A stretch of 64,000 bases of DNA from a virus (Duplodnaviria; Heunggongvirae; Uroviricota; Caudoviricetes). The notes under the pieces are model-generated. The model had not been told where the DNA came from. It did no database searches and worked only from the letters and a program-made list of their open reading frames with translations. Position 1 is the stretch's first letter; each line of letters begins with the position of its first letter. Shown here one piece after another: positions 2,248 to 30,721 of the stretch. The stretch spans positions 64,001-128,000 of the IMG/VR virus record IMGVR_UViG_3300021963_000025; one strand, given 5' to 3'. The position numbers were made by a program, and so were the translations under genes.

Positions 2248-2745
2248 ATGAAAAAAGTAAAACTATTTGAGGAATTTATCAATGAAGGAAAATCATTCCA
2301 ATTCTCTTTTGACTACAATACTGATGAAGATGATGTAGAATATATCCAAGACATTTTAATGAATGCTGGAGTAGATGCAATTGCAGAGCCTGGTACATTT
2401 GACGATGAAATGATAGTTAAAGCCCCAAATGCAGTTGAATTGCGTAAGGCTAAAAAAGCAATCCAGGCAGATGGATTTGAAATTAACGAATCGACACAAA
2501 TGCCTAAACCTATGAAAGGTTTAAAGTACGAAGTAGTTAAAGCAAAAGATTTAAAAATTGGTGACGAAATATCAGATGGACCAAAAGAAACTTGGGAAAT
2601 TTCTAAAGTTGTTTCTATTAATCCTGTTAAATTAGAAGTTGTTGAAACTATCGTTCCCGAAGATAATCCAAGATATAAAGCACCAGGAACTCTTATTAAC
2701 ATTGATTTTGGTCCATATGCAATGATGTTTAAAATAATCAGATAA
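2248..2745 (+). CDS. Leader-bearing putative virion internal protein, two modules
   Basis: MKKVKLFEEFINE leader; internal FEINE-S site. Confidence 0.75.
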   Translation: MKKVKLFEEFINEGKSFQFSFDYNTDEDDVEYIQDILMNAGVDAIAEPGTFDDEMIVKAPNAVELRKAKKAIQADGFEINESTQMPKPMKGLKYEVVKAKDLKIGDEISDGPKETWEISKVVSINPVKLEVVETIVPEDNPRYKAPGTLINIDFGPYAMMFKIIR

Positions 2746-2747
2746 TT

Positions 2748-3173
2748 ATGAAACATACTCAATTATTTAATGAGTTCTTAAATGAATCTCAGAACTTTAT
2801 CGGCGAATCCAGTATTGGAGACATTCATATTATGGCTCAAGAGGCAGATTCTTTCACTGCATTCCGAAAAGAATTCATGGACGAATATGGCAAACCAAAA
2901 TCAGTTAAAGAACTTAAAAGTTTAGAGGCTTGGTTGCAAGAAATTTGGAATGAAAACCAAACTAATGAAAGTGAATTACTTGAAGCTGAAAAGTTTCAAG
3001 CAATAGACATTCCTAAAAGTGCAGCTGCTGGTATAGAACGTATGATTAACACAATTGGAATTAATCAAGCTATTCGTGATGTATTAGGATTTGATAAAGT
3101 TTATCAGAGTTCTGTTGGTATTAACAAGAATAACATAGTTATAACTATTACACAAAAACCAAGAAAAGGATAA
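2748..3173 (+). CDS. Leader-bearing putative virion internal protein
   Basis: MKHTQLFNEFLNE leader; internal QTNE-SELLE-A. Confidence 0.75.
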   Translation: MKHTQLFNEFLNESQNFIGESSIGDIHIMAQEADSFTAFRKEFMDEYGKPKSVKELKSLEAWLQEIWNENQTNESELLEAEKFQAIDIPKSAAAGIERMINTIGINQAIRDVLGFDKVYQSSVGINKNNIVITITQKPRKG

Positions 3174-3451
3174 TGAAACACATTAAACTACACGGAGAAT
3201 TTATTAACGAGGCCAAATCTGAAGTATATCCAGAAGAGGTTCAAAATATAATTGATGGACTTATTGGTATTGGTATGAAAAAATATCAATTAGCAGCTCA
3301 TACTAACTATGGAGTTTGGTTTATTGAATTACCATTTACAGCAATACATATTGGTAATTTAAAGAAAATTGAAAAAATTATACCAGACTTCAACATTGGA
3401 ATCTGGAATGGTTATTCAGGACTATCAATTAGAACAAATATATCTGTATAA
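3173..3451 (+). CDS. Leader-bearing putative virion internal protein
   Basis: MKHIKLHGEFINE leader. Confidence 0.75.
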   Translation: MKHIKLHGEFINEAKSEVYPEEVQNIIDGLIGIGMKKYQLAAHTNYGVWFIELPFTAIHIGNLKKIEKIIPDFNIGIWNGYSGLSIRTNISV

Positions 3452-3885
3452 TGAAAAAGGTAAAACTATTTGAAGAATTTATCAGTGAAACATTATCGAT
3501 GGACGCTGTTTATATTCACCAAATCACTGGTTCAGGCCAGGACGCTGCACAGAACTTTATTGATGATAATAATATAGATTCGGCAAAATTAGTAGCATTT
3601 CTTAAACAACATAAAGACTCAAAAGAGAAATATGATGTTAGAGACATGATTAATGGCACTAATAAGAATAAAAGATTTATGAAGCAATTCATGAATGAGT
3701 CAATGAAGGCAAAAGACTACTTCAAAGACCCAATGCACCTCGCAGACGCTAAAGGATGGGTCATAAATCTTAAGCTATCTGATGATGAGATAAAAGCCAA
3801 GATAAAATCAGTAATGAAAGATCCGTCTAAATTTAATAACTTAATGGACGCAATGACTGACGAATTAAACCTAAAGTGGAAATAA
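3451..3885 (+). CDS. Leader-bearing putative virion internal protein, two modules
   Basis: MKKVKLFEEFISE leader; internal KQFMNE-S. Confidence 0.75.
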   Translation: MKKVKLFEEFISETLSMDAVYIHQITGSGQDAAQNFIDDNNIDSAKLVAFLKQHKDSKEKYDVRDMINGTNKNKRFMKQFMNESMKAKDYFKDPMHLADAKGWVINLKLSDDEIKAKIKSVMKDPSKFNNLMDAMTDELNLKWK

Positions 3886-3887
3886 TT

Positions 3888-4442
3888 ATGAAGCACATAA
3901 AACTATACGAAGAGTTTGTTAATGAACTTGAAATCCCGTCGAACCGTTGGATTGAGCTAGATTTAAAACAAATCGATGCAGCTGGTATGGAGAGTATATG
4001 GACTATGTACACTGATACGTATTTAGGTGCGGGTATGGACCTATCGGCAAATGATTGGCCCGAAATGCAGGCAAAGTACAAAGCAACTGCCCTAAAAGAC
4101 GTTGATGGTGACCATTTTGCGGATGCATTTATTATTTATAAGCCTACCAGATGGGGTAACAAAATCGCCCTATTAGGAACCAATGGTAAAAAAGAGGCAA
4201 AATCTGATGTGGTTAAAAAATTACTGCAATTGGTTAACACTAAAGGTTGGTTTATCGAAGCAAGTCTGAAAATGGAGGAAATCCTCTCTAAGTCAGGAGC
4301 TCCAGTTATAATGGATGAAGAAATGATTAAGGATGTAGTAGGAGCAGATAAAAAACCTGAATTTACAGGCGATGGATATTACACCCGATTCCTATCAAAG
4401 GCAGGTAAAAGAATAACAAAAAGAATATACGGTAAAATATGA
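3888..4442 (+). CDS. Leader-bearing putative virion internal protein (start corrected to 3888)
   Basis: MKHIKLYEEFVNE leader begins at ATG 3888. Confidence 0.75.
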   Translation: MKHIKLYEEFVNELEIPSNRWIELDLKQIDAAGMESIWTMYTDTYLGAGMDLSANDWPEMQAKYKATALKDVDGDHFADAFIIYKPTRWGNKIALLGTNGKKEAKSDVVKKLLQLVNTKGWFIEASLKMEEILSKSGAPVIMDEEMIKDVVGADKKPEFTGDGYYTRFLSKAGKRITKRIYGKI

Positions 4443-4693
4443 AAAAAGTAAAATTATTCGAGGAGTACATCCAAGAGGCGACTACTTCATGGAGCAAAAT
4501 GATGAAAGGTGTTAAAGACGGAGAAAGCGGACCTTGGACAATAGTTGCTATTGAAAACAATAAGGTTGTTGGACAAAAGAATATAGACATTAGAGACCTT
4601 TTACCTGCTGCATTCGAAGAAATGCGTAAAGAATTTCCAAGAGCCAAGTTTCATATTGAAGATAGTACAGGCGGAGTTGTTTGGAATATATAA
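4439..4693 (+). CDS. Leader-bearing putative virion internal protein
   Basis: MKKVKLFEEYIQE leader. Confidence 0.75.
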   Translation: MKKVKLFEEYIQEATTSWSKMMKGVKDGESGPWTIVAIENNKVVGQKNIDIRDLLPAAFEEMRKEFPRAKFHIEDSTGGVVWNI

Positions 4694-4699
4694 ATTGTT

Positions 4700-5125
4700 A
4701 TGGGAGTTATAATTAAAAATGCTATTAATAAAGAGGAACATGAAGCGCTACTTCGAGGAGATACTTCATTTGTTCATATAGCAGGAGAAACTAATCCAAC
4801 AATTTTAAAGATTATTGGAATTCTTAGAGAGCATTTTGATTTTGTAATTAAACCAGAATCATATTGGAGAATAGAACATACTCCTAATGGACATGATTGG
4901 CATATTGATACTGGAACAAATAACCACATGATGTGGTGCCAAGTTGGATGTTCAATATTGTTAACATCAACCAAAGAATTTGAAGGTGGTGAAACCTTTT
5001 ACAATAAAGAGGAACCTTACACAGTGGAACGAGACCTTTATGACATTGCAGCACATACATCGTCTGAATGGCACATGGTTAAACCACATACAGGAAATAG
5101 AGTAGTTCTGCTACTTTTTATTTAA
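4700..5125 (+). CDS. 2OG-Fe(II) oxygenase (P4H-like)
   Basis: WHID (H-x-D), FEGGETF, WHMVKP..GNRVVL motifs. Confidence 0.75.
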   Translation: MGVIIKNAINKEEHEALLRGDTSFVHIAGETNPTILKIIGILREHFDFVIKPESYWRIEHTPNGHDWHIDTGTNNHMMWCQVGCSILLTSTKEFEGGETFYNKEEPYTVERDLYDIAAHTSSEWHMVKPHTGNRVVLLLFI

Positions 5126-5139
5126 TAAAAAACAAAGAC

Positions 5140-5460
5140 ATGAAAAAAGTAAAATTATTTGAGCAGTTTGTCAATGAGGCAAAAGATGCTACTAGAGATG
5201 AATTAATGGACCTAATGGAAACCAAATACAAAATTAAATCTGTTAGACCTTCTGAAGATTTTGACGGTCAAACTGAAGGAATTTGGATTGCAGCTGATAA
5301 TGAGGAAGAGTTAAGTGGTAATAAAATATTTGACTACTACAATAAAAGTGCTAAATACAAAAATGGCGTACTTAAAAGTGTAGTAGATGCTGTAGAGAAA
5401 AAAGGTTGGTGGTTTTCATGGAACGACCCAGGAACAATGATGTGTTGGCCAAAAAATTAA
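5140..5460 (+). CDS. Leader-bearing putative virion internal protein
   Basis: MKKVKLFEQFVNE leader. Confidence 0.75.
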   Translation: MKKVKLFEQFVNEAKDATRDELMDLMETKYKIKSVRPSEDFDGQTEGIWIAADNEEELSGNKIFDYYNKSAKYKNGVLKSVVDAVEKKGWWFSWNDPGTMMCWPKN

Positions 5461-5466
5461 TAAGAT

Positions 5467-5808
5467 ATGAAAAAAGTAAAATTATTTGAAGAGTTCATTG
5501 ATGAATCTGCGACAGTTCTTCACCAACACGATTTCTTAGGAATGCAGGCTCAAGCCGCAAATATGTCTAGGGAGGAATGGATTGCTCACTACGGATCACC
5601 TGAAATTGGCTCTGGAATTGATGAATCAAAGAAAGGTATTTACACAGTCTATTTTGAAGACAGGGATGGAGAAATATGGGATTGGGACGTTCCAGCTAGT
5701 TCACCTGAAGAGGCAATTAAACTAGTACAGGACGGAAAGGCCCTAGGACCTTACGACCAAACACTTCCAAGAGGAGCCCGTAACTTTCACGCAAAGTTTT
5801 ATAAATAA
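5467..5808 (+). CDS. Leader-bearing putative virion internal protein, two modules
   Basis: MKKVKLFEEFIDE leader; internal GIDE-S. Confidence 0.75.
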   Translation: MKKVKLFEEFIDESATVLHQHDFLGMQAQAANMSREEWIAHYGSPEIGSGIDESKKGIYTVYFEDRDGEIWDWDVPASSPEEAIKLVQDGKALGPYDQTLPRGARNFHAKFYK

Positions 5809-18332: not shown

Positions 18333-18538
18333 GTTACTTTTTAGCACACAACGAAACGGATGTTTTTCATTATGGAGAACTATTAGAAGGCCAGGTAATA
18401 GAAACTGGGCAACCGCATTTAGAATATTTTAATGCATTGCAAGAATTAAAAGATAGATTGGCTTTTTTTAATGTAGAGTATATTGAAAATATTGACGTAG
18501 ACCTTCCAGGTGGACCAAACGATGATTTAATAGAGTAA
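18329..18538 (+). CDS. Hypothetical protein
   Basis: 69-aa ORF overlapping the previous stop. Confidence 0.6.
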   Translation: MSYFLAHNETDVFHYGELLEGQVIETGQPHLEYFNALQELKDRLAFFNVEYIENIDVDLPGGPNDDLIE

Positions 18539-18549
18539 ACAATCTTAAA

Positions 18550-18580
18550 ATTTGATATATAATACTTGAATATATCAAAT
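18550..18580. promoter_or_regulatory. 11-bp inverted repeat with a late motif in the left arm
   Basis: atttgatatat / atatatcaaat; GATATATA at 18554-18561; ATG at 18584. Confidence 0.7.
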
Positions 18581-18583
18581 AAC

Positions 18584-19135
18584 ATGTTAAACGAAGCTTA
18601 CACCACTGACAAAATCCTTATTTTCGATATTGATGATACTATCGCAATTACCCCTGCGAAAATAGTAGTCACTGACACAAAAACTGGAAAGACATTCGAA
18701 CTGACTCCAGAAGAGTTTAACTCATACGAGAAAAACAAAAATCATCTTGTTAATTTCGACCAATTCAGATCACTAGAGATTATGAAAGCGGGTCGATTGA
18801 TTGATAAATACTTCAACGTACTCACTAAAAACTACAAGAGTGGCGTTGCAATCGGTGTTATTACAGCACGAGACAATAGAGAAATGATATACGAATGGTT
18901 CCGCTTTCACTTAGGATTCCATATCGATAAAAAACTGATCTGGGCAGTTAATGACCCAGTCCATGGACTTACCGGAAATATACAACAACGAAAACAGGAC
19001 GCAATGCGCTGGTTTATTGACCAGGGTTACACGGATATCACGTTCTTCGACGACGATAGAAACAATATAAAACTAATAAAACAATTAGAGAGTGAACTCG
19101 GTCAATCGATCAAGACACATCTTGCTAAACACTAG
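18584..19135 (+). CDS. HAD-superfamily hydrolase (start corrected to ATG 18584)
   Basis: IFDIDDT, VITAR, FFDDD motifs. Confidence 0.7.
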   Translation: MLNEAYTTDKILIFDIDDTIAITPAKIVVTDTKTGKTFELTPEEFNSYEKNKNHLVNFDQFRSLEIMKAGRLIDKYFNVLTKNYKSGVAIGVITARDNREMIYEWFRFHLGFHIDKKLIWAVNDPVHGLTGNIQQRKQDAMRWFIDQGYTDITFFDDDRNNIKLIKQLESELGQSIKTHLAKH

Positions 19136-19141
19136 GAAATT

Positions 19142-20323
19142 ATGGCAAATTTAGGAGATTTTAAAACAAGATTTGAAATGGCAGTTAATCAGGCCAATGC
19201 AGATCAACAAATAAATGAATCGATGGATTCACCTCTAAATGAGGCAAAAATTAATACAGAATCAATGCAAGGGGAGGTTGATAACCCAGGATCTATTCAT
19301 GGAAATATGGCCCTAATTGATGCGCTTACAAAAGCTAAAAAAATTGATGATTATAAAACTTTTGCAAAAAACTATCCAAATGGAATTCCAACAACTTTTA
19401 TCTTAAATCTTTTTGCATCACTGAATCCAAAAGAGTCAGAAGAACTTGCTAAAGATTTATACTCAAAATCAACTCCAAAAGACTTGAACGCTGGAATGTA
19501 CTCAAATAGAAATTCAGTACTTGGAAAGTTATTTGACCAAAAGCCAACTGGACTTGGAAAGGGAGAAGCACTTATTGCATGGTTAATTAGAGGTGCAGTA
19601 ATTCAAGGTGGAACAGAGAGTTATGATGTTATCATTAATGGAAAAGATACCTTTGAGGTTAAAGATTACAGTAAAAATAATGCAGCAATCCGAGCAGGAG
19701 TAAAATCAAAGGTTAGTAACTTTGAATTTTGGAGAGAGATTAGCGATACACTATCAAGAATCGATAAATTGACAGGATATTCTGCTGGAAAACCTAAATT
19801 TGATATAAGCAAATACTTCTCTCCGGAGATGACAACAGCAGCAAACTACCTAATGGGAAGAAGAGGTACTATCATGTCGGGTGAATGTAATAAAACCGAT
19901 TTTGCAAATATTAACAAATTCTATGAAGAGGCTCATAAGGTTGAAAATAATCTACATGGGTATACCAATGTGATTTTAAGAGGACCAAATGCAGCTCCTA
20001 TCGAGTTAAGTATTGACCTATTAGACCCTGCTGCGGTTAAAGGAGATACAATTACCTTTCATGTTGCAAAAACCGACCAAACTGCAACGTACATTCTAGC
20101 AGAATTGAAGCGATTAAAATATGTTAGAAATCCAAAAGACTTAGAAGTGGATATGCAAAAAGCGGTTGACCAAATACATTCAGGACTTGTGTATATCGTA
20201 TTCCGTAAAAACACAATAAATATTACAACAGATTTTGTACCAGCTCAGGTATCAACATCATCTCTCTACTTTGTAGAAAGAAACATTAAAGACCCTATAA
20301 TAGACACTACATTAGATGACTAA
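19142..20323 (+). CDS. PD-(D/E)xK nuclease-like protein with N-terminal INE/LNE sites
   Basis: GKGEALIAW...SYDVIING..FEVKD; QQINE-S, PLNE-A near the N-terminus. Confidence 0.5.
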   Translation: MANLGDFKTRFEMAVNQANADQQINESMDSPLNEAKINTESMQGEVDNPGSIHGNMALIDALTKAKKIDDYKTFAKNYPNGIPTTFILNLFASLNPKESEELAKDLYSKSTPKDLNAGMYSNRNSVLGKLFDQKPTGLGKGEALIAWLIRGAVIQGGTESYDVIINGKDTFEVKDYSKNNAAIRAGVKSKVSNFEFWREISDTLSRIDKLTGYSAGKPKFDISKYFSPEMTTAANYLMGRRGTIMSGECNKTDFANINKFYEEAHKVENNLHGYTNVILRGPNAAPIELSIDLLDPAAVKGDTITFHVAKTDQTATYILAELKRLKYVRNPKDLEVDMQKAVDQIHSGLVYIVFRKNTINITTDFVPAQVSTSSLYFVERNIKDPIIDTTLDD

Positions 20324-20495
20324 TGAGGAATGGAATAAATACGTTGACACTGGTTATGTACCACAAAGGTTCATAAAGGAAATAGTGACCAGAATTAAAC
20401 ACAATATGACGCTCAATATGAGACACATTCAAGTGTATATGACTCATAGTGCAATTATAGAATTATATTTAAAAAACGGAATAAAAAATAAATAA
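20316..20495 (+). CDS. 59-aa protein absent from the ORF track (MTNEEWNKYVDTG...)
   Basis: ATG overlaps the previous stop region; TAA ends 3 nt before the next ATG, filling the gap exactly. Confidence 0.6.
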   Translation: MTNEEWNKYVDTGYVPQRFIKEIVTRIKHNMTLNMRHIQVYMTHSAIIELYLKNGIKNK

Positions 20496-20498
20496 AGC

Positions 20499-21089
20499 AT
20501 GAAACATGTTAAACTATACGAACAATTCGTAAATGAGGCTAAAAGTTACAGTATCAAAGGAATGATAAAAAAGGCAACTACTGATAAAACAGACAGATTG
20601 CCATACGTAACACTTACATCAGATGTTGACCGATTTATTTCAAGATGGGCATATAGACAAGGTTTAGATGAAATTGATTTTACTCCAGAAATGAGAGCCG
20701 AATTTGAAGACGGAATCCGAGCAGCAGGCTATGATGTAGTTGATGCTAAAGACATTGAAAAGCAAAAAGTATTCAGTGCATTGATGAAGGACCTAAAAAA
20801 ATCATGGGATTGGGATGTTAAATTGACTCCACATAAAGATGAAAATTATACCACAAACTCTAGACCCCTGATTTATATTGAACTTAGAGGCGGAAAAGCA
20901 GGAAAACTAGAGAATGGAGAACCGATTATCGATCTTAATATTGGTAACAAAATGCCTTACTATTTCAATGGCACTAGTGAACAATTCAGTACTTGGTTAC
21001 ATGACAGAGGATTTGCAATTATTAGTACTAATGGTCAAAAATTCATTACTGAATTAAGTGCTACAAGAGGAGAACCATCATACTACTAA
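20499..21089 (+). CDS. Leader-bearing putative virion internal protein
   Basis: MKHVKLYEQFVNE leader. Confidence 0.75.
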   Translation: MKHVKLYEQFVNEAKSYSIKGMIKKATTDKTDRLPYVTLTSDVDRFISRWAYRQGLDEIDFTPEMRAEFEDGIRAAGYDVVDAKDIEKQKVFSALMKDLKKSWDWDVKLTPHKDENYTTNSRPLIYIELRGGKAGKLENGEPIIDLNIGNKMPYYFNGTSEQFSTWLHDRGFAIISTNGQKFITELSATRGEPSYY

Positions 21090-21105
21090 ATAAAAAATCA
21101 TAACA

Positions 21106-21618
21106 ATGAAACACATTAAAGTATTTGAAGACTTTGCAAATGAGGCAAAGAATAAAGGCCCGTTTATCTTTTACACGGCAGATGATTCAGTGATGAAATC
21201 CGCACAGTTTAAAAATAGCGCTGGATATGTTAAAGACATGGAGAAAGACCTAGGAGTCGATCCAAACCAAATTAACGACATCATAGTAAAAGAACTTGGC
21301 TCTTCAATTGATAAAGCATGTTACGTTACCGCTGACAACTATAATGAAATAACTTCACATGCAAAAGCTGCCATGATAAAAGGTATTAAATTTGTACAGC
21401 AAGGAGATTTTAAACTAAATGAACAATTTGTAAACGAGGCAATGGCACTAACCCAATATTACAGAAACTCTGACAAGGAGGTAAAAGATATTGCAAAACA
21501 AATAGATGCTATTATTAATACAGCAGATTTTGTAGTACCATCAAGTAAAGACAAGTTACTAGACCTGATCACTGACCTAACAGATGCATATCTAGCGGAT
21601 ATGCGTGACGAGGAATAA
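21106..21618 (+). CDS. Leader-bearing putative virion internal protein, two modules
   Basis: MKHIKVFEDFANE leader; internal KLNE-QFVNE-A. Confidence 0.75.
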   Translation: MKHIKVFEDFANEAKNKGPFIFYTADDSVMKSAQFKNSAGYVKDMEKDLGVDPNQINDIIVKELGSSIDKACYVTADNYNEITSHAKAAMIKGIKFVQQGDFKLNEQFVNEAMALTQYYRNSDKEVKDIAKQIDAIINTADFVVPSSKDKLLDLITDLTDAYLADMRDEE

Positions 21619-21759
21619 TATATCACATCAACTATGTCCCGTATAATATTCTCTAACTAGAATGGACCCTCAAATCCCCCTACCGCTTCTATACTCGATT
21701 CCCCTAATAATGGGAATCATTATCTTGATAAAAGACAGAAAACACTAAATAACTATAAC

Positions 21760-21969
21760 ATGGAAAACATTACACTAGGACAGAAAAGGGTACAAAGAAA
21801 CTTTAACCCTTCAGCAAACCCAGATGTCGAAAACATTAAAGAGCAATATGCTAATATTATCGACCATTTAGAAACCTTAAGAAACGACCGTAACGGTAGA
21901 GAGGTTTCAATAGCACAAACAGAGGCTGAAACCTCTTGTATGTATGCAGTAAAATCACTATTTGTATAA
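21760..21969 (+). CDS. Acb2/Tad1-like helical-hairpin protein (putative immune-signal sponge)
   Basis: FNPS..V..IK...A.II..LE..; REVSIAQTEAETSCMYAVKS fits the R..s.A.T..E...M.A.K hairpin pattern. Confidence 0.6.
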   Translation: MENITLGQKRVQRNFNPSANPDVENIKEQYANIIDHLETLRNDRNGREVSIAQTEAETSCMYAVKSLFV

Positions 21970-21971
21970 TC

Positions 21972-22499
21972 ATGAAACATGTAAAACTGTTCGAACAATT
22001 CATAAATGAAGGTTACATGGATAACTTTAAAGAGTATGAAAAGGAATTCAAAAAGAGAGGTTTGAATCGACACAGTGAAGGATGGTCAGAAGGTGGTTAT
22101 GAGGACATTTGGTATACAGATTTCGAATTAGGCCGTTTTGTTGTTAGTTTCTGGGGACTAAATATGGCCCTAACATCTGACATGTCAAAAACCCAACGTA
22201 ATAAACCAGAATACGAGTACAATGTATATTTCGAACCTTTCCCAAAATACAAAATGAAATTATTTGGTTTGATTAAAACTCAAGAGCGTCAATTAGGCAA
22301 ACAAATCGACTTTGCTAGAGGTTACATCGATTTTTCAGAAGGTAAATTTACAACAGATGATAAAACATTTATGAAGTACCTATTTAGTGTAGTTGATGAT
22401 GGATTAGAAAAATCTAAAGAAATTTCTAAAATTGAATACCTTTCTTTTGAAGACAGCGCAAAATGGGCACGTCCAGCAATCGATAATGTAAATAGATAA
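21972..22499 (+). CDS. Leader-bearing putative virion internal protein (start corrected to 21972)
   Basis: MKHVKLFEQFINE leader. Confidence 0.75.
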   Translation: MKHVKLFEQFINEGYMDNFKEYEKEFKKRGLNRHSEGWSEGGYEDIWYTDFELGRFVVSFWGLNMALTSDMSKTQRNKPEYEYNVYFEPFPKYKMKLFGLIKTQERQLGKQIDFARGYIDFSEGKFTTDDKTFMKYLFSVVDDGLEKSKEISKIEYLSFEDSAKWARPAIDNVNR

Positions 22500-22507
22500 A
22501 ACCAATT

Positions 22508-22915
22508 ATGAAACCTATAAAACTATTCGAAGAATTCCTTAATGAGTCCCAAAAACAGGATGCTGCTATGCAAAAGGTGGAAGCACTCCCTAAAGGGTCA
22601 ATATTTGATGATGCAAAACGAATAGACTCTATATTCAAAATTAACAATCGTACTTGGAGTGAAGTGGTTCAAGCCTGGGAAGAGAATGAAAAATCTGCAA
22701 AAAGCAAAACAATAAACCCTAAGGACGTACAAATAACCCAAAGGAATATACAATCAAGCAAGGTAGAGGAAATGATATACAGAAAGGGTCCTCTTAAAAC
22801 CATTAATGTTATTGAATTCCCAGAAGGAATGGTAATCCCCGATGGACACCACAGACTTACAACAGCATGGGCCCTAGGAGAAACCAAACTAAAAGTTAAC
22901 TACGTAAAAGCATGA
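22508..22915 (+). CDS. Leader-bearing ParB/Srx-like domain protein
   Basis: MKPIKLFEEFLNE leader; INPKDVQITQ..VIPDGHHRL..A..LG motif. Confidence 0.7.
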   Translation: MKPIKLFEEFLNESQKQDAAMQKVEALPKGSIFDDAKRIDSIFKINNRTWSEVVQAWEENEKSAKSKTINPKDVQITQRNIQSSKVEEMIYRKGPLKTINVIEFPEGMVIPDGHHRLTTAWALGETKLKVNYVKA

Positions 22916-23430
22916 AACATATAAAACTATTTGAAAACTTCCTAAATGAAGAAACCCAATTCCCAGCACAGTTTGGTATAGATGAACCAGTAGCTTTCAA
23001 AACCTCTCAGCAGGACCCTGAAAGATGGGGAACCGTAGTCAAAGTATCATTCACTAAAGCAAAAGTTTGGTATGATATACTGGATGATTATACAGCAACC
23101 GTAATTAGTGATGTAGATTCAGTATGGGTAAAATCATTAGCAGGAAAACCCCTACCAGAATCCTTCCTAAATGAAGGGGAAGATGCAGTAACCCTAAACG
23201 TAACTATTAGTAATATTGACCAATCTACAGCAGACGATTTCTTAAAGATGTTTGCATTCATGGAATATTGTGGAAACGTAGGAACTGCCCGAACGATGCA
23301 GGCTTTCTTTGATGGTGATGGACACTTCAGACCCCGTATCAAAGTTGAAGGCATCGACCTACAAGATATCGACCTAGGCCTAACTGATGAAGACAAGAAA
23401 ATCGACCTAGACTTGGACTTCGGAGCCTAA
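22912..23430 (+). CDS. Leader-bearing putative virion internal protein, two modules
   Basis: MKHIKLFENFLNE leader; internal ESFLNE-G. Confidence 0.75.
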   Translation: MKHIKLFENFLNEETQFPAQFGIDEPVAFKTSQQDPERWGTVVKVSFTKAKVWYDILDDYTATVISDVDSVWVKSLAGKPLPESFLNEGEDAVTLNVTISNIDQSTADDFLKMFAFMEYCGNVGTARTMQAFFDGDGHFRPRIKVEGIDLQDIDLGLTDEDKKIDLDLDFGA

Positions 23431-23454
23431 ACCCCCTAAAACAAACCAACTGCA

Positions 23455-23482
23455 GAGGACCCAAAAAAAGGTCCTCTTTTTT
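23455..23482 (+). terminator. Rho-independent terminator
   Basis: gaggacc-caaaaaaa-ggtcctc followed by a T-tract. Confidence 0.8.
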
Positions 23483-24098
23483 ATCGAGCCCGGCACGTCC
23501 GACAACCCCGTCCCCCACAATAAAAAACCGATAGAAATAAAAATCTAAAACAAAAACATCTAAGACACCTTATAAATCTATAACAGATACAAGATAATCT
23601 CTATATAGATAAGGATATAAACCCCCTAATAGAACCCCTATAAGGTATAATACTCCCCTCCCTGACCCCCGTTACTGTCCAGTTTTTAAGCCCTCAATTG
23701 CCCTTCGTACCCGTACCCGTAGGGGCCAATCCCCAGTCAACCAGGTACCCCAGTTCTACCTTTCTTAACAAAAGGATATATACCCACACTCCAAGCCCAG
23801 TAGGTCTCTCAATAGTTCCCTTCATGTCCCTCTAAGGGCCTTAAACCTCTCGTCGAGTTGGGTCACCCTCCGAGGCACTCCGGACCCTCTTTTCACTCCT
23901 GGGCACCTCCAAAACCATCCACCAATCCCAGTTCCTACCAAACGGGCGTTTGGATGCACCAAGTGCTAGTGCCCCTGCGGGCAAAACAATTCTGCCTTGC
24001 CCGGCCATTGGTCTACCGCGAAACGCACGAAATCCGGGAACACCACACTCCCGGAAATCGCTATCTAATTAAGGCAGTTTCGGGTGCCGGCCGTTATA

Positions 24099-25199
24099 TT
24101 ATAATTCTACTACCGTCTTTAATTCTTCTGGTATAGCGTCCTTGTCGAAACCGAATAATTTGTCGAAGGCATTACTTTCCCCAGCTAGAGCCTTTCTCTC
24201 TTCAGCTAATACCTCGTCATTAAAAAGGTCTCTTGTATATCGGCCTTCGTCAAAGGAGACTCCTTCTGATAATTCGTAATATAGTTTTTTACCTACCTGA
24301 CCGGTACGGTTTTTAGAGAACTCCATGAATCTTCTACCGCTATTTTCAGAACCGTCCCAGTCCAACATCATCATCGCGGTCGTCATGTGTTTCAGTTTAT
24401 TAGAACCAACGAAGTTACCACCTTTAGATAATTGCAGGATAGTTACGAAGGTTGTGTAAGTCTTAGTCTTATTACCACCTTTATTATGCTGGGTCATTAG
24501 GTCTAGGAACCACTTTTCAGTTTTTGAACGGGTCATGTTACATTCCTCCTTGATAGTGTCATTAACCTCTGTATAAGAGTCGGTTAATACTACGTCCCAT
24601 CCTTGGTTAAGTACACCTTCAATGACCCCTTTTGGACAAGACTCTGTATAGTCAGAAAGGAATAAGATAGGTAATTGTCCCCAGTGTGGGAAACGTTTTA
24701 AGTAACGGGCCATATCTATCTGGTTCATTTCAGCAGAGATGAATAGGACACGTTTTCCAGATGCATGTAGTTTAGAAAGTAATTCTAATAGCACTGTAGT
24801 TTTACCGACACCAGGAGCTCCAGCAGCCATTATATTTGTTCCAGGTAGGAAACCACCTTCAGTTGAACAAAACTGGTCGAAGATAGTTCCAGTTGGAAGA
24901 CTGGTGAATAGGGAATCATCGATATTTAAGTCGTCCAATTTGGTAAGTGTTACCTCAACTGGAGCACAAGGGTTAGAGGTTGATTGGGATGTTGAGGTTC
25001 CGTAATCGTTATTATAGTCTTTGTTACTTGTCCATCGCCCAGTTTCGGTGATGTTGATAACACGGTTTGCGTCTTGATTAGATATCCATTCGAATTTAGA
25101 GTGACCTGCTTCGATTAGGATGGTATTTGTAGGTGTCTTAGTGTTAACCAATAAGAAGTGGTTGTCTTGAGGGCGGATGATGTAAGATTGTCTGTTCAT
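24099..25199 (-). CDS. RadA/Sms-like RecA-fold ATPase
   Basis: AGAPGVGKTT, ISAEM, VVLTDS, QLSKGGNFVGSNKLKHM, FSKNR motifs; lacks Zn finger and Lon domains. Confidence 0.8.
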   Translation of the reverse strand: MNRQSYIIRPQDNHFLLVNTKTPTNTILIEAGHSKFEWISNQDANRVINITETGRWTSNKDYNNDYGTSTSQSTSNPCAPVEVTLTKLDDLNIDDSLFTSLPTGTIFDQFCSTEGGFLPGTNIMAAGAPGVGKTTVLLELLSKLHASGKRVLFISAEMNQIDMARYLKRFPHWGQLPILFLSDYTESCPKGVIEGVLNQGWDVVLTDSYTEVNDTIKEECNMTRSKTEKWFLDLMTQHNKGGNKTKTYTTFVTILQLSKGGNFVGSNKLKHMTTAMMMLDWDGSENSGRRFMEFSKNRTGQVGKKLYYELSEGVSFDEGRYTRDLFNDEVLAEERKALAGESNAFDKLFGFDKDAIPEELKTVVEL

Positions 25200-28933: not shown

Positions 28934-28937
28934 CCAG

Positions 28938-29232
28938 GATCAATGCCCGGCAAGTTGCCCCGGATCAATGCCCGGGATCAATGTACCAGGCAATGTCCCG
29001 GATCAATGTATTTCAATGCCCGGGCTCAATATATTCAATGTATTTCAATGCCCGGTGCAATAAATCAATGACCCAGGACAACATTTCAATCGGTATCAAT
29101 GTTTTCAATGAGGACTCAATAATTGCAATATGTGCTATAGGTCAATATGTTGTACTACCTGCATTGAACCTATCAACAGTTGTCACCTGCGCAATAATTC
29201 AATGCCTGCACAATGCAGGTCAATGCAGGTAG
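28938..29232 (+). repeat. Non-coding degenerate TCAATG / TCAATGCCCGG repeat cluster
   Basis: About a dozen TCAATG copies plus many CAAT, irregularly spaced, nearly all on one strand. Confidence 0.8.
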
Positions 29233-30422
29233 TTAACCTACAGTAATACCAATAATATCATCAGATGCAAGTAGGACTACAGGTGCATAGGGTCCTATAG
29301 GACTATTGACCCTTAACACGGTGGGCCAGGTCTGCTGGGTGCATTGAGTCCCCTGGGGAGTTGCTATAGCGGCCAGGTCTATGATTTTTCAAAGGGCTCC
29401 AGGGGAGCAGAGCATGGCCTTCCATCACTCTCAGTACTTCCTAACTAATATTGACCTATTGAAAAATGTGTTTCAAATATGTCAACGAATTATCCCTGGC
29501 CGGAAATAGTGCCCTCCGAGCATTGACCGACCCAATGGTCCTCAAATGGTCCTCCGATGGTAGCCAATGGTCCAACTGGGACCCTATAAGCGCTCAATGT
29601 TGCCCAGACCGAAAAAATTACCCGGTTCCGGAGTGGCCAAAAGACCAATTGCGACCGATAGAATCGTTACCACCGTTACAAGAAAACCCTAAGGACTATA
29701 ATTAACCAATAAGAGGGTACTCAATTCCCTATGGTTGGCTCAGATTGACCTGAGAGTACAGTGAAATACTTAGAGAATCTTGAAACTAAATGGTCCTATG
29801 AGAATATAAGAGATGTCCATGTCTCAAAGGTGAAAGGTAGGGCCATTCACCGAACTCTCACCTCTCTGAGGTACTCCAAGCCTTCAAAGGTCCTCAAAGG
29901 TCCCAAAAATATTCCAGTAGAAAAAAATAAATTGATCCCTATCCAAATAGTCCCAAAGGGGGCGGGGTGGGGGCGTGCTTAAGGGTTCTATTAGCGCTAT
30001 GTATATTATAGTATACAAAAGGTTGAATTGGTATTGATAATGTATATTATAGTATACAAAATCCGTTATTAATAAGAGGGATAGGAGGGACACACCCACT
30101 CTGATACTCGATAGGGGGAATCAGAAACATGTGACGACCAATAGTCCAATAGGTACTGTGTCAGGCACGAAGTGTACTTTGAGGGCTAGGATTGGTCCGC
30201 CCAATGGTTCTCAATGTACTTCAAAGAACCTCAACGGTTCAATCGTTCTGGTAGATTTTTTCCATTTTTTCGTGATTGAAACCCAAATTTTCCCACACCT
30301 ATTGGAGGGTGCACTTGGGTAGGGAATTACAGAAATAAAAATTTTCATCGAACCCAAAGAATCTTCAAGTCTACCCTGAAACAAATGGGAATTACTCAAT
30401 ATAAATCTAAAATAAGAATACT

Positions 30423-30632
30423 ATGTGGAAAACTAAAGAAACTGAAGTTAAAGGCCGTAAGGTCGTATCGATGATTTGTCAGAACTCCGAACCGGATAGG
30501 AGTAAATGGGCAGAATTTGCGCCTGAAGAGGGACCATGCGAGAACTGGACTGTTGTAGGAGCCGAGGCTACCGCATCACTTTGTCCTGAATGCGTCCAGC
30601 GTTCGGTTAATATTCGTATTCCTAACCAGTAA
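30423..30632 (+). CDS. Hypothetical small Cys-containing protein
   Basis: 69 aa with C..C..CPEC, possibly Zn-binding. Confidence 0.6.
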   Translation: MWKTKETEVKGRKVVSMICQNSEPDRSKWAEFAPEEGPCENWTVVGAEATASLCPECVQRSVNIRIPNQ

Positions 30633-30721
30633 CAGGGAACCGCGCATATTATGTTATTATAAGGATTAGGGTGTACAATGGGTTTGGGTTTTCAAATATA
30701 TAAAGAAAAACCCAATACAAT

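What the first reader, a model, noticed from the sequence alone, without database searches (positions are those of the whole stretch)
20499..23430. Second cargo array mixing leader proteins with a putative anti-defence gene
Seen: five leader genes, about 15 kb from array 1 and separated from it by fibre genes, with an Acb2/Tad1-like gene inside and a nuclease-like gene just upstream. Inference: a counter-defence island whose products are delivered with the genome.
Basis: partly seen in the sequence, partly recalled or inferred. Interest (0 to 1): 0.7.

Follow-up and report, generated by a model that had tools for sequence, protein, structure and literature searches.

The report
Variable array of capsid-tagged phage proteins
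Five neighbouring genes of a large uncultured T4-like phage share a 13-residue tag that most likely loads their otherwise unrelated products into the virus head for injection; their content differs between close relatives, and an untagged immune-signal "sponge" gene has landed among them.

Summary
Five genes at 20499-23430 start with MKH[IV]K[LV][FY]E.F.NE, and a leaderless 69-aa gene among them (21760-21969) matches Pfam Acb2_Tad1_hairpin above its cut-off. The "nuclease" upstream rests on a motif only.

The leader most likely works like the T4 capsid-targeting sequence. The genome encodes a T4-type prohead protease. The leader's last residues recur just after the protease domain and, in relatives, at the capsid protein's N-terminus. 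The same cargo carries three lineage-specific leaders. A promoter-like motif heads both this operon and the protease gene.

Five syntenic relatives carry five different cassettes. Only the ParB/Srx-fold gene is constant. Two genes are two-module fusions joined at a retained leader end.

"Counter-defence" is only partly supported. No body in this array belongs to a known anti-defence family, though a tagged Acb1-like enzyme lies elsewhere in the genome. The Acb2-like gene has no tag and moves between unrelated elements, so it is probably made in the cell, not injected.

This scan had already reported the same leader system for array 1 and for another pair in this genome. It is a new variant of a known kind. 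No protein-level data exist.

The parts
18554..18562 (+). GATATATAA promoter-like motif heading the operon that contains array 2
   Evidence: Seven copies in the window, all on the + strand (expected 1.7; 0 of 100 shuffles reach 7). Eighteen in the genome, all + strand. Sixteen lie 3-33 nt before an ORF start and two lie 61 and 116 nt before one. Downstream genes include the prohead protease gene and 8 leader-type genes.
18584..19135 (+). HAD/polynucleotide-kinase-phosphatase-like gene, first gene of the operon
   Evidence: phrog_415 E 1.6e-8. Weak Pfam DUF2608/HAD_2 hits. 90-95% identical in syntenic relatives.
19142..20323 (+). 393-aa conserved protein with a PD-(D/E)xK-like E...D...ExK pattern ('nuclease-like')
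   Evidence: E142, D162, E172 and K174 are invariant in 5 homologues. A conserved [IL]-x-E followed by S/A lies near residue 26. No family or PDB match.
20316..20495 (+). 59-aa conserved small gene, left flank of the variable cassette
   Evidence: 71-87% identical in all syntenic relatives. No family.
20499..21089 (+). Leader gene 1 (196 aa; leader MKHVKLYEQFVNE, body pI 6.2, no family)
   Evidence: Its body is found only in the L009-L012 lineage (76%), again directly after the 59-aa gene.
21106..21618 (+). Leader gene 2 (170 aa), a two-module fusion: leader, then module 1 (aa 14-111, ending KLNEQFVNE), then module 2 (from A112, nt 21439)
   Evidence: Module 2 is a stand-alone 77-aa leader gene in the close relative L008 (2094-2327). 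The aligned stretch is 83% identical, and the last 57 residues are identical.
21619..21759 (+). 141-nt spacer unique to this genome, with a hairpin at 21697-21718, upstream of the sponge-like gene
   Evidence: No nucleotide match in any related locus. Hairpin listed.
21760..21969 (+). Leaderless 69-aa Acb2/Tad1-hairpin-family gene (candidate immune-signal sponge)
   Evidence: Pfam PF24729, 36.9 bits against a cut-off of 27. 354 homologue clusters, of which the best 120 listed are 74-100% identical to the query. Absent from three syntenic lineages, present in L028. Homodimer model passes.
21972..22499 (+). Leader gene 3 (175 aa; body pI 5.6, rare module)
   Evidence: Only 9 representatives among 1.84 billion proteins. 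Some sit behind a type C leader, others inside 245-572-aa multi-module proteins joined at ESVVNE.
22508..22915 (+). Leader gene 4 (135 aa): ParB/sulfiredoxin-fold protein with invariant DGHHRL, the only constant member of the cassette
   Evidence: 80 homologue clusters. Invariant motifs. AF2 pLDDT 89.9. All top-50 Foldseek PDB hits are Srx, ParB-N, Noc, SbnI, SerK or KorB. Found in 42 viral loci behind three leader types.
22912..23430 (+). Leader gene 5 (172 aa), a two-module fusion: leader, then module 1 (aa 14-88, ending ESFLNE), then module 2 (from G89, nt 23176; VTLNVTISNID...DGDGHFRP)
   Evidence: Module 2 is a stand-alone leader gene of about 98 aa in most of the 133 homologue clusters, and matches phrog_10928. 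Module 1 is joined to a different second module in L028. A leaderless homologue exists in Staphylococcus Twortvirinae phages.
23454..23487 (+). Intrinsic-terminator-like hairpin plus T-run ending the operon
   Evidence: 8-bp stem (5 GC pairs) followed by TTTTTT.

Best explanation
Array 2 is the variable tail of one probably late operon, running from the promoter-like GATATATAA at 18554 to the terminator at 23454. Its five tagged genes encode capsid-targeted proteins. The 13-residue N-terminal leader docks each precursor into the assembling prohead core. The phage's T4-type prohead protease then cuts after the terminal Glu of ...F-[VIL]-N-E, before A, S, G or E. The mature bodies stay in the head and enter the cell with the DNA. 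This works like the T4 internal proteins Ip1-3 and Alt. Two genes (21106, 22912) are two-module polyproteins that keep a leader end at the junction, so one tag probably loads two products. New cargo is gained, lost and fused by recombination at the leaders. This leaves one constant member, a ParB/Srx-fold nucleotide-binding protein, and a changing set of accessory modules whose likeliest role is to act at the first moments of infection (counter-defence or host takeover). The Acb2/Tad1-family gene is a separate, horizontally mobile insertion without a tag. Its product most likely forms an oligomeric sponge made inside the infected cell. Shown here: the leaders, the protease gene, motif sharing, cassette variability, fusion and fission of modules, the ParB/Srx fold, and Pfam membership of the sponge-like gene. 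Inferred: packaging, cleavage, injection, late timing and every cargo function.
For: (1) About 25 leader genes occur in the 199.7-kb record, five of them here. Among 20 leaders, 41% of same-residue codon pairs use different codons, so selection acts on the peptide and not on the DNA. (2) A Peptidase_S77 (T4 gp21-type) protease is encoded in this genome (45.6 bits; 46.2 bits). It is also in 5 of 5 large relatives covering all leader types. (3) The leader's end recurs where a prohead protease is expected to cut. RVNE-A and GF[LV]NE-G lie directly after the protease domain. In a relative they are followed by 14-residue scaffold-like repeats of the form Y.E.[LIV]AE. The gp23-like capsid proteins of relatives begin MANLINE-A (type A) and MYLINE-S (type B). 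The type C capsid propeptide carries LLE motifs like the type C leader LL.E. (4) One cargo, the ParB/Srx fold, carries leaders of type A (MKHIKLFEEFVNE), type B (MKHIHTYEDFLNE in L017; the L018-L020 copy begins MKPIKLYKEFINE) or type C (MIRLKSLLKE), depending on the phage lineage. (5) The last six leader residues, EEF[VIL]NE, resemble the T4 CTS MKTYQEFIAE (PMC8442874). T4 CTS peptides are 10-20 residues and are removed by gp21 (PMC5694885). (6) Five syntenic lineages have flanks 71-96% identical but five different cassettes of 2-5 leader genes. (7) Module fusion and fission: 21106 against L008; 22912 module 2; 21972 module. For 22912 module 2, a [LIVFM]-x-E lies 4-6 residues before the module in 71 of 73 stand-alone forms and 17 of 23 fused forms. 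For the 21972 module, junctions read ESVVNE, and one protein has a complete internal MKHVKLFEEFVNE. (8) GATATATAA precedes this operon, the protease gene and 8 other leader-type genes. (9) Another tagged protein of this genome matches Pfam Acb1, an anti-CBASS family (31.5 bits, cut-off 27). (10) T4 Ip1-3 share only the leader, lie in a genomic hotspot, and each blocks a different GmrSD type IV restriction enzyme (PMC12373910). (11) Sponge-like gene: Pfam hit. A homologue sits next to a Sequestin sponge gene (Sequestin shown to block Thoeris in bioRxiv 10.1101/2025.07.12.664507). The homodimer model scored 0.56 against a best of 3 controls of 0.02. That mark was reached by 20 of 30 proteins solved as pairs and by 1 of 23 solved as single chains. 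The runs agree in 100% of contacts and partner pLDDT is at least 84. The pass may reflect memory of solved Acb2 complexes.
Against: There is no protein-level evidence: no virion proteome, no observed N-termini and no cultured relative. tblastn of the 393-aa and ParB-like proteins against 50,697 phage records found nothing. None of the five bodies matches a known anti-defence family. Four of the five bodies are acidic (pI 4.2-6.2), unlike the basic T4 Ip2 and Ip3 (the T4 property is from PMC8442874). The loose internal [FLIVM][ILVFAM]NE motif is only about 2-fold enriched in leader proteins genome-wide. The polyprotein reading therefore rests on comparisons, not statistics. The capsid protein of this genome lies off the contig, so its N-terminus was read in relatives only. 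Late timing is inferred from one shared motif. Membership of the sponge-like gene rests on the Pfam profile alone. PDB sequence and profile searches and Foldseek did not recover Acb2 or Tad1, and the monomer model was mediocre (pLDDT 69.5).
Confidence: 0.68

Rival explanations
1. The tagged proteins are standing internal head or core components (scaffold-like, DNA-packing or ejection machinery). They are loaded by the same tag but serve virion assembly rather than counter-defence.
For: The ParB/Srx-fold protein is present in every syntenic relative and in 42 viral loci across three leader lineages, with constant length. The VTLNVTISNID module has over 130 homologue clusters. The genes appear co-regulated with the protease. 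No anti-defence family hit for any body.
Against: Three of the five genes and two of the four fused modules are absent from relatives whose flanks are 71-96% identical. The 21972 module has only 9 representatives in 1.84 billion proteins. The VTLNVTISNID module occurs leaderless among small accessory genes of Staphylococcus Twortvirinae phages. T4 precedent makes such variable tagged proteins anti-restriction factors (PMC12373910).
Confidence: 0.2
2. The whole island, including the Acb2/Tad1-like product and the upstream nuclease-like protein, is packaged and delivered with the genome.
For: The Acb2-like gene lies inside leader arrays in two lineages, the window and L028. The 393-aa protein has a conserved [IL]-x-E followed by S/A near residue 26, which could end a divergent propeptide. 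The first operon gene starts MLNE-A.
Against: The Acb2-like protein has no leader or cleavage motif. Homologues 77-78% identical to it lie in a crAss-like phage, a 96-kb phage and a Flavobacterium contig beside PcfJ/PcfK, none in a leader array. It has its own 141-nt upstream spacer. Known sponges act by stoichiometric sequestration after expression in the cell (PMC12393519; 10.1101/2025.07.12.664507).
Confidence: 0.08
3. The shared N-terminus is not a packaging tag. It would be a translation-initiation or mRNA element, a recombination scar, or a tag for another fate such as degradation or membrane association.
For: No direct evidence of packaging. Leaders clearly serve as recombination points.
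Against: Conservation is at the peptide level with free synonymous change. The leader is hydrophilic and charged, so it is not a signal peptide or membrane anchor (seen directly in the sequence). The leader type changes with the phage lineage and with the type of its prohead protease and capsid N-terminus, while the cargo stays the same. The leader end is retained at internal junctions at a fixed distance from the next module.
Confidence: 0.05

Closest known systems
Capsid-targeting sequence (CTS) and internal-protein (ip) loci of T4 and other T-even phages (Ip1, Ip2, Ip3, Alt; cut by the gp21 prohead protease)
   Same: A short N-terminal leader is shared by otherwise unrelated small proteins. 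It ends in hydrophobic-x-Glu, and its last six residues resemble T4's QEFIAE. A gp21-family protease is present. The genes cluster in hypervariable hotspots. T4 Ip1-3 are injected inhibitors of type IV restriction (PMC8442874, PMC3012670, PMC5694885, PMC12373910). The phage also carries a thymidylate-synthase-fold gene that an earlier report reads as a dCMP hydroxymethylase, as in T4.
   Different: The scale differs: about 25 tagged genes per genome against 3-4 in T4 and about 10 known types across T-evens. The leader is longer (13 residues) and has lineage-specific variants. There are multi-module polyproteins with internal leader ends. Cargo is mostly acidic. In types A and B the protease sits in a 635-647-aa ORF with a repeat-rich scaffold-like tail. 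The host is probably Flavobacteriia. Nothing has been shown at protein level.
Long propeptides of ejection/inner-head proteins of giant phages (SPN3US, phiKZ, 201phi2-1), processed by a gp21-like protease
   Same: Many inner-head proteins are processed after Glu by a T4-related protease. The protease autoprocesses its own C-terminus. Paralogues share identical N-termini (PMC5694885).
   Different: Those propeptides are mostly over 100 residues and are not one portable tag. Here a single 13-residue tag is reused on dozens of unrelated modules.
Acb2 and Tad1 sponge proteins (anti-CBASS, anti-Thoeris)
   Same: The 69-aa ORF matches the shared Acb2/Tad1 hairpin Pfam domain above its cut-off. It is small and predicted to self-associate through its helical hairpin. 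A homologue lies beside another sponge gene (Sequestin).
   Different: It is shorter than the Acb2 and Tad1 I recall (about 90-140 aa; from memory). No PDB Acb2 or Tad1 was recovered by sequence or fold search. Hexamer formation, ligand and pocket residues are untested. The subfamily is unusually conserved (the best 120 clusters listed are 74-100% identical to the query).
ParB/Srx superfamily (ParB-N CTPase domain, sulfiredoxin, SbnI/SerK kinases, Noc, KorB)
   Same: The predicted fold of residues ~60-135 matches these proteins. The DGHHR motif aligns with the DGvHR of SbnI.
   Different: This is a minimal single domain preceded by a conserved ~50-residue segment and a capsid-type leader. It has no DNA-binding HTH or dimerisation domain. 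The ParB GERR box was not looked for, and the substrate is unknown.
P1 Dar (defence against restriction) head proteins
   Same: Anti-restriction proteins are incorporated into the head during assembly and injected (PMC12810830 abstract).
   Different: Dar proteins are large and are loaded through a protein-protein hierarchy (my recollection), not through a common cleavable leader.

Membership tests
T4-type CTS / internal proteins | Short N-terminal peptide shared by otherwise unrelated proteins | tested here: met
   Five genes here and about 25 in the genome. Bodies are mutually unrelated.
T4-type CTS / internal proteins | Leader ends in the prohead protease cleavage motif (hydrophobic-x-Glu), and the same motif occurs in other head substrates | tested here: met
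   [VILA]-N-E at leader residues 11-13. RVNE/F[LV]NE follows the protease domain. LINE ends the first residues of the capsid protein in relatives. Motif level only.
T4-type CTS / internal proteins | gp21-family prohead protease encoded by the phage | tested here: met
   PF03420, 45.6-46.2 bits against a cut-off of 27. Present in 5 of 5 relatives.
T4-type CTS / internal proteins | Proteins are physically packaged in the head, the leader is removed, and they are injected with the DNA | not testable with these tools
   Needs virion proteomics or reporter packaging. No cultured relative found.
T4-type CTS / internal proteins | Sequence homology of the leader to the T4 CTS | tested here: inconclusive
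   EEF[VIL]NE against QEFIAE: 3 of 6 identical plus conservative changes. Too short for statistics.
Acb2/Tad1 sponges | Match to the Acb2_Tad1_hairpin profile above the curated threshold | tested here: met
   36.9 bits against 27, covering 50 of 58 profile positions. Nearly all listed homologues carry PF24729.
Acb2/Tad1 sponges | Homo-oligomer (hexamer) with ligand pockets at protomer interfaces | tested here: inconclusive
   Only a dimer was modelled. Score 0.56 against a best of 3 controls of 0.02; that mark was reached by 20 of 30 solved pairs and 1 of 23 single chains; 100% contact agreement; pLDDT at least 84; may be from memory. Hexamer and pocket not modelled.
Acb2/Tad1 sponges | Structural similarity to solved Acb2 or Tad1 | tested here: not met
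   Monomer model pLDDT 69.5. Foldseek PDB gave no hit at E<=0.001 and no Acb2 or Tad1. PDB phmmer and profile searches were also negative. A weak model makes this a weak negative.
Acb2/Tad1 sponges | Binds cyclic oligonucleotides or gcADPR and rescues phage from CBASS or Thoeris | not testable with these tools
   Needs binding assays and plaque assays.
ParB/Srx superfamily | ParB/Srx fold | tested here: met
   AF2 pLDDT 89.9. All 50 best Foldseek PDB hits belong to this superfamily: probability 0.82-1.00 (0.96-1.00 for the top 31), best E 3.5e-3, TM to target about 0.6.
ParB/Srx superfamily | Conserved nucleotide-binding motif (DGHHR-type) | tested here: met
   D112 G113 H114 H115 R116 L117 are invariant in 20 homologues. 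They align to DGvHR of SbnI 5uje (E 0.28).
PD-(D/E)xK nucleases (393-aa upstream gene) | E...D...(D/E)xK catalytic pattern on the restriction-endonuclease fold | tested here: inconclusive
   The pattern is invariant in 5 homologues. There is no profile, PHROG or PDB match, and the fold was not predicted.

The most novel reading that the evidence does not exclude
A clade of large T4-related phages, probably of Flavobacteriia, runs a plug-and-play protein-injection system. A portable 10-13-residue address tag co-evolves with the lineage's prohead protease and scaffold. Dozens of small accessory modules are drawn from the general phage gene pool; one also occurs untagged in Staphylococcus phages. 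They are tagged singly or strung into polyproteins that the protease cuts at retained tag ends. Each virion would then deliver a customised cocktail of effectors, including a universal ParB/Srx-fold enzyme and an Acb1-like nuclease, ahead of any gene expression.
Probability: 0.45. Interest if true: 0.8.

Novelty: new variant of a known kind. Interest (0 to 1): 0.62.

Why it matters
If the tag works as in T4, it marks which proteins these uncultured phages inject with their DNA. These are the proteins that act before any phage gene is expressed, when restriction and other first-line defences strike. That would turn many genes of unknown function into a defined, testable class. It would show injected cargo evolving by cassette exchange and polyprotein fusion. 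It would single out a conserved ParB/Srx-fold protein as a candidate universal injected effector. Lineage-specific tags paired with their proteases would also be natural parts for loading foreign proteins into capsids, as is already done with the T4 CTS. The untagged Acb2-like gene shows that the same hotspot also collects anti-defence genes that act after expression.

Tried and rejected
- DNA search (blastn) of 18500-24500 against 50,697 phage records: no match. tblastn of the 393-aa and ParB-like proteins: no match. No cultured relative is on hand.
- Pfam and PHROG scans of the five bodies: nothing for 20499, 21106 and 21972. Only weak ParB hits for 22508. An unknown-function PHROG for the 22912 C-module.
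- ESM Atlas look-ups of the 20499 and 21972 bodies: no usable hit.
- Acb2-like protein against PDB by phmmer and by an 18-sequence profile: only chance-level hits. Its AF2 monomer (pLDDT 69.5) gave no Foldseek PDB match.
- PDB profile search with the 393-aa family: nothing. The nuclease reading stays at motif level.
- Genome-wide count of the loose internal motif [FLIVM][ILVFAM]NE: about 2-fold enriched in leader proteins (5 against about 2.6 expected), too weak to carry the polyprotein idea alone.
- Sigma-70-type promoter and terminator scan: not above shuffles. Only the terminator at 23454 is convincing.
- Sequestin (PF21825) in this genome: no hit over the cut-off.
- gp23 capsid family in this genome: not on the contig, which ends at the protease gene.
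- Rfam on the ORF-free blocks at 23431-24098 and 28934-30721: nothing credible.
- I considered that the Acb2-like gene is specifically linked to leader arrays. I rejected this, because near-identical homologues sit in unrelated contexts.


Full report
OBSERVATION. The window is bases 64001-128000 of a 199,669-bp linear IMG/VR virus record estimated 74% complete. At 20499-23430 there are five same-strand ORFs: 20499-21089, 21106-21618, 21972-22499, 22508-22915 and 22912-23430. Their first 13 residues are MKHVKLYEQFVNE, MKHIKVFEDFANE, MKHVKLFEQFINE, MKPIKLFEEFLNE and MKHIKLFENFLNE. The ORF at 21972 is listed from an upstream TTG, but the leader Met is the credible start. A leaderless 69-aa ORF (21760-21969) lies between genes 2 and 3. 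It matches Pfam Acb2_Tad1_hairpin (E 4.1e-9, 36.9 bits, cut-off 27). Array 1 (2248-5808) is about 15 kb upstream, beyond tail-fibre-like and DUF285-repeat genes. The exception is the 'nuclease-like' label for 19142-20323, which rests on an invariant E142...D162...E172-x-K174 pattern only, with no family, PHROG or PDB support.

THE LEADER IS A PEPTIDE-LEVEL SIGNAL TIED TO HEAD MATURATION. About 25 ORFs of the record carry the leader or a close variant. Across 20 leaders, 41% of codon pairs that encode the same residue use different codons. Conservation therefore acts on the peptide, not on DNA or RNA.

The record encodes a T4 gp21-type prohead protease (Peptidase_S77). Directly after the protease domain the ORF reads ...RVNE-AYGFLNE-G..., which is the leader's terminal motif. 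In a close relative, where the ORF is complete (635 aa), this is followed by scaffold-like 14-residue repeats Y.E.[LIV]AE. This genome's capsid gene lies off the contig. In relatives the gp23-like capsid protein starts MANLINE-A (type A leader lineage) or MYLINE-S (type B). In the type C lineage its propeptide carries LLE motifs that mirror the type C leader.

T4 gp21 removes 10-20-residue CTS propeptides from the internal proteins, Alt, gp23 and gp24. It cuts core proteins to fragments and autoprocesses its own C-terminus (PMC5694885). The T4 CTS is MKTYQEFIAE (PMC8442874), and its last six residues resemble the EEF[VIL]NE found here.

SAME CARGO, DIFFERENT TAGS. The 135-aa protein of 22508 has 80 homologue clusters of nearly constant length, with invariant DGHHRL and ITQ.N.Q..K. 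Its AF2 model (pLDDT 89.9) matches only sulfiredoxin, ParB-N, Noc, SbnI, SerK or KorB among the top 50 PDB hits. It is therefore a minimal ParB/Srx-fold domain.

A scan of viral contigs returned 42 loci. The same body carries MKHIKLFE.F.NE in the window's lineage and MKHIHTYEDFLNE in L017; the L018-L020 copy begins MKPIKLYKEFINE while its neighbours carry MKHI.TF..FLNE. A third lineage carries MIRLKSLLKE or MIRLRNLLNE. Some phages have a further module inserted between tag and body. All five large relatives tested encode the S77 protease. It is a 635-647-aa ORF in types A and B and a ~210-aa protein in type C. A tag that changes with the head machinery while the cargo stays fixed is what an address label predicts.

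CASSETTE CONTENT VARIES. Five lineages share the flanks. These are the HAD-like gene (90-95% identical), the 393-aa gene (82-83%, but 26% in L028), the 59-aa gene (71-87%) and the KaiC-like gene on the other strand (91-92%). Between the flanks they differ:
- Window: six genes.
- L009-L012: the 20499 orthologue plus ParB/Srx.
- L002/L008: a 209-aa repeat protein, a 77-aa gene and ParB/Srx.
- L007/L015: a 154-aa gene plus ParB/Srx.
- L028: ParB/Srx, three other leader genes, a 22912-module-1 gene with an in-frame stop, and the Acb2-like gene.
Only ParB/Srx is constant.

MODULES ARE FUSED AT RETAINED TAG ENDS. Residues 112-170 of the 21106 protein are a stand-alone 77-aa leader gene in L008. The aligned stretch is 83% identical, and the last 57 residues are identical. 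In the window an extra ~98-residue module sits between the leader and a second leader end, KLNEQFVNE-A.

The C-module of 22912 (from G89, after ESFLNE) is a ~98-aa stand-alone leader gene in most of 133 clusters. In others it follows varied N-modules. A [LIVFM]-x-E lies 4-6 residues before the module in 71 of 73 stand-alone forms and 17 of 23 fused forms. In L028 the 22912 N-module is joined to a different second module after PTNE-A.

The rare 21972 module (9 representatives in 1.84 billion proteins) occurs behind a type C leader. It also occurs in 245-, 358- and 572-aa multi-module proteins joined at ESVVNE, one of which has a complete internal MKHVKLFEEFVNE. The genome-wide motif count alone is weak, at about 2-fold. 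The comparative evidence is what supports polyproteins.

REGULATION. GATATATAA occurs 18 times in the record, always on the + strand. Sixteen copies lie 3-33 nt before an ORF and two lie 61 and 116 nt before one. It precedes the prohead protease gene, 8 leader-type genes, and (at 18554) the HAD-like gene that opens the unit 18584-23430. That unit ends at a hairpin plus T-run at 23454-23487. I read it as one promoter class shared with head genes, hence probably late. That timing is inferred.

WHAT THE CARGO DOES. No body in array 2 matches an anti-defence family. Bodies are acidic (pI 4.2-6.2), except ParB/Srx at 9.3. Four things favour accessory-effector roles:
- The variability described above.
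- A tagged protein elsewhere in this genome (2478-3017) matches Pfam Acb1 above its cut-off.
- The 22912 C-module occurs untagged among small accessory genes of Staphylococcus Twortvirinae phages (32% identity, E 3e-12 pairwise).
- In T4, Ip1-3 share only the leader, sit in a hotspot, and each blocks a different GmrSD enzyme (PMC12373910).
The phage has a thymidylate-synthase-fold gene, which an earlier report reads as a dCMP hydroxymethylase. I did not test that reading, so any link to type IV restriction is speculation.

THE ACB2/TAD1-LIKE GENE. It belongs to a family of 354 clusters of 69-70 aa; the best 120 listed are 74-100% identical to the query. tblastn hits 146 Flavobacterium phage records at 44% identity. 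Near-identical copies lie right after the capsid gene of a crAss-like phage and in a 96-kb phage. Another lies in a 310-kb 'uncultured Flavobacterium' contig beside PcfJ/PcfK and directly before a Sequestin gene. Sequestin is a proven anti-Thoeris sponge family. Three syntenic relatives lack the gene, and its 141-nt upstream spacer is unique.

A homodimer model passed. It scored 0.56 against a best of 3 controls of 0.02. That mark was reached by 20 of 30 solved pairs and 1 of 23 single chains. The runs agree in 100% of contacts and pLDDT is at least 84. The pass may reflect memory of solved Acb2 complexes. PDB sequence, profile and fold searches did not recover Acb2 or Tad1. I file it as a Pfam-level family member and candidate sponge. 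It was inserted into a recombination hotspot and is not itself packaged.

VERDICT. The finding is real. It extends a system that this scan had already described for array 1 and for a gene pair at the start of the same genome. New here are the cassette comparison, the tag swapping on one cargo, the match between tag end and the protease and capsid motifs, the documented fusions, the shared promoter motif and the mobility of the sponge-like gene. No paper in the searched library contains the leader strings. It is a new variant of the T4 CTS/internal-protein principle. Packaging, cleavage and cargo functions remain inferred.

Noticed in passing
window 23431-24098: A C-rich, ORF-free 668-bp block between the array's terminator and the convergent KaiC-like gene. 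It is conserved at 67-74% nucleotide identity in three syntenic lineages. Rfam gives no hit. It could be a structured RNA on the - strand or a regulatory region.
   Followed up: partly
window 28934-30721: A 1.8-kb ORF-free block with raised G+C (0.43), conserved at about 76% identity in L002 and L007. No credible Rfam match.
   Followed up: partly
genome 198969-199669 (L001:1441-2142); L054 and L053 in relatives: The prohead protease is the N-terminal ~160 residues of a 635-647-aa ORF. Its tail holds 14-residue repeats of the form Y.E.[LIV]AE[SK], so it looks like a protease-scaffold fusion.
   Followed up: partly
genome-wide; window 618, 897, 2216, 5854, 18554, 46084, 60501: GATATATAA occurs 18 times, all on the + strand, mostly 3-33 nt upstream of ORF starts. 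It is a candidate phage promoter class shared by head, tail (Dit-like, 60513) and leader genes.
   Followed up: partly
L059:4001-4422 (NCBI GCA_963513585.1 contig, 310 kb): An Acb2-like gene lies directly upstream of a Sequestin (PF21825) gene and near PcfJ/PcfK genes in an 'uncultured Flavobacterium' contig. This looks like a two-sponge anti-defence pair on a conjugative-element-like region.
   Followed up: no
L062:2446-4213 (ENA k141_261472, 92 kb): The same 70-aa Acb2-like gene sits between the crAss-type major capsid gene and the ring-protein genes of a crAss-like phage, inside the structural module.
   Followed up: no
genome 2478-3017 (L068): A leader-bearing 180-aa protein matches Pfam Acb1, the anti-CBASS phosphodiesterase family (31.5 bits, cut-off 27). 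The neighbouring leader protein (1790-2488) matches DUF5824.
   Followed up: partly
L033, L035, L039, L043-L045, L047, L049; L034-L042: A third leader type (MI[KR]L..[LI]L.E) marks arrays of small genes in phages with ~210-aa gp21-like proteases. In some, ParB/Srx is fused behind an extra ~60-residue Cys-containing module.
   Followed up: partly
L028:6623-6900: The orthologue of the 22912 N-module carries an in-frame stop where the window has Trp. This could be a pseudogene, a sequencing error or a read-through.
   Followed up: no
window 18584-19135 and 19142-20323: The two untagged genes at the head of the operon have cleavage-like motifs near their N-termini. The first starts MLNE-A. The second has [IL]-x-E followed by S/A near residue 26, conserved in 5 homologues. 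They might be processed head proteins too.
   Followed up: no
P0325 (572 aa, metagenomic): A multi-module leader protein combines a P-loop (GGAGSGKG) module with the 21972-type module and a third module, joined at ESVVNE sites.
   Followed up: no
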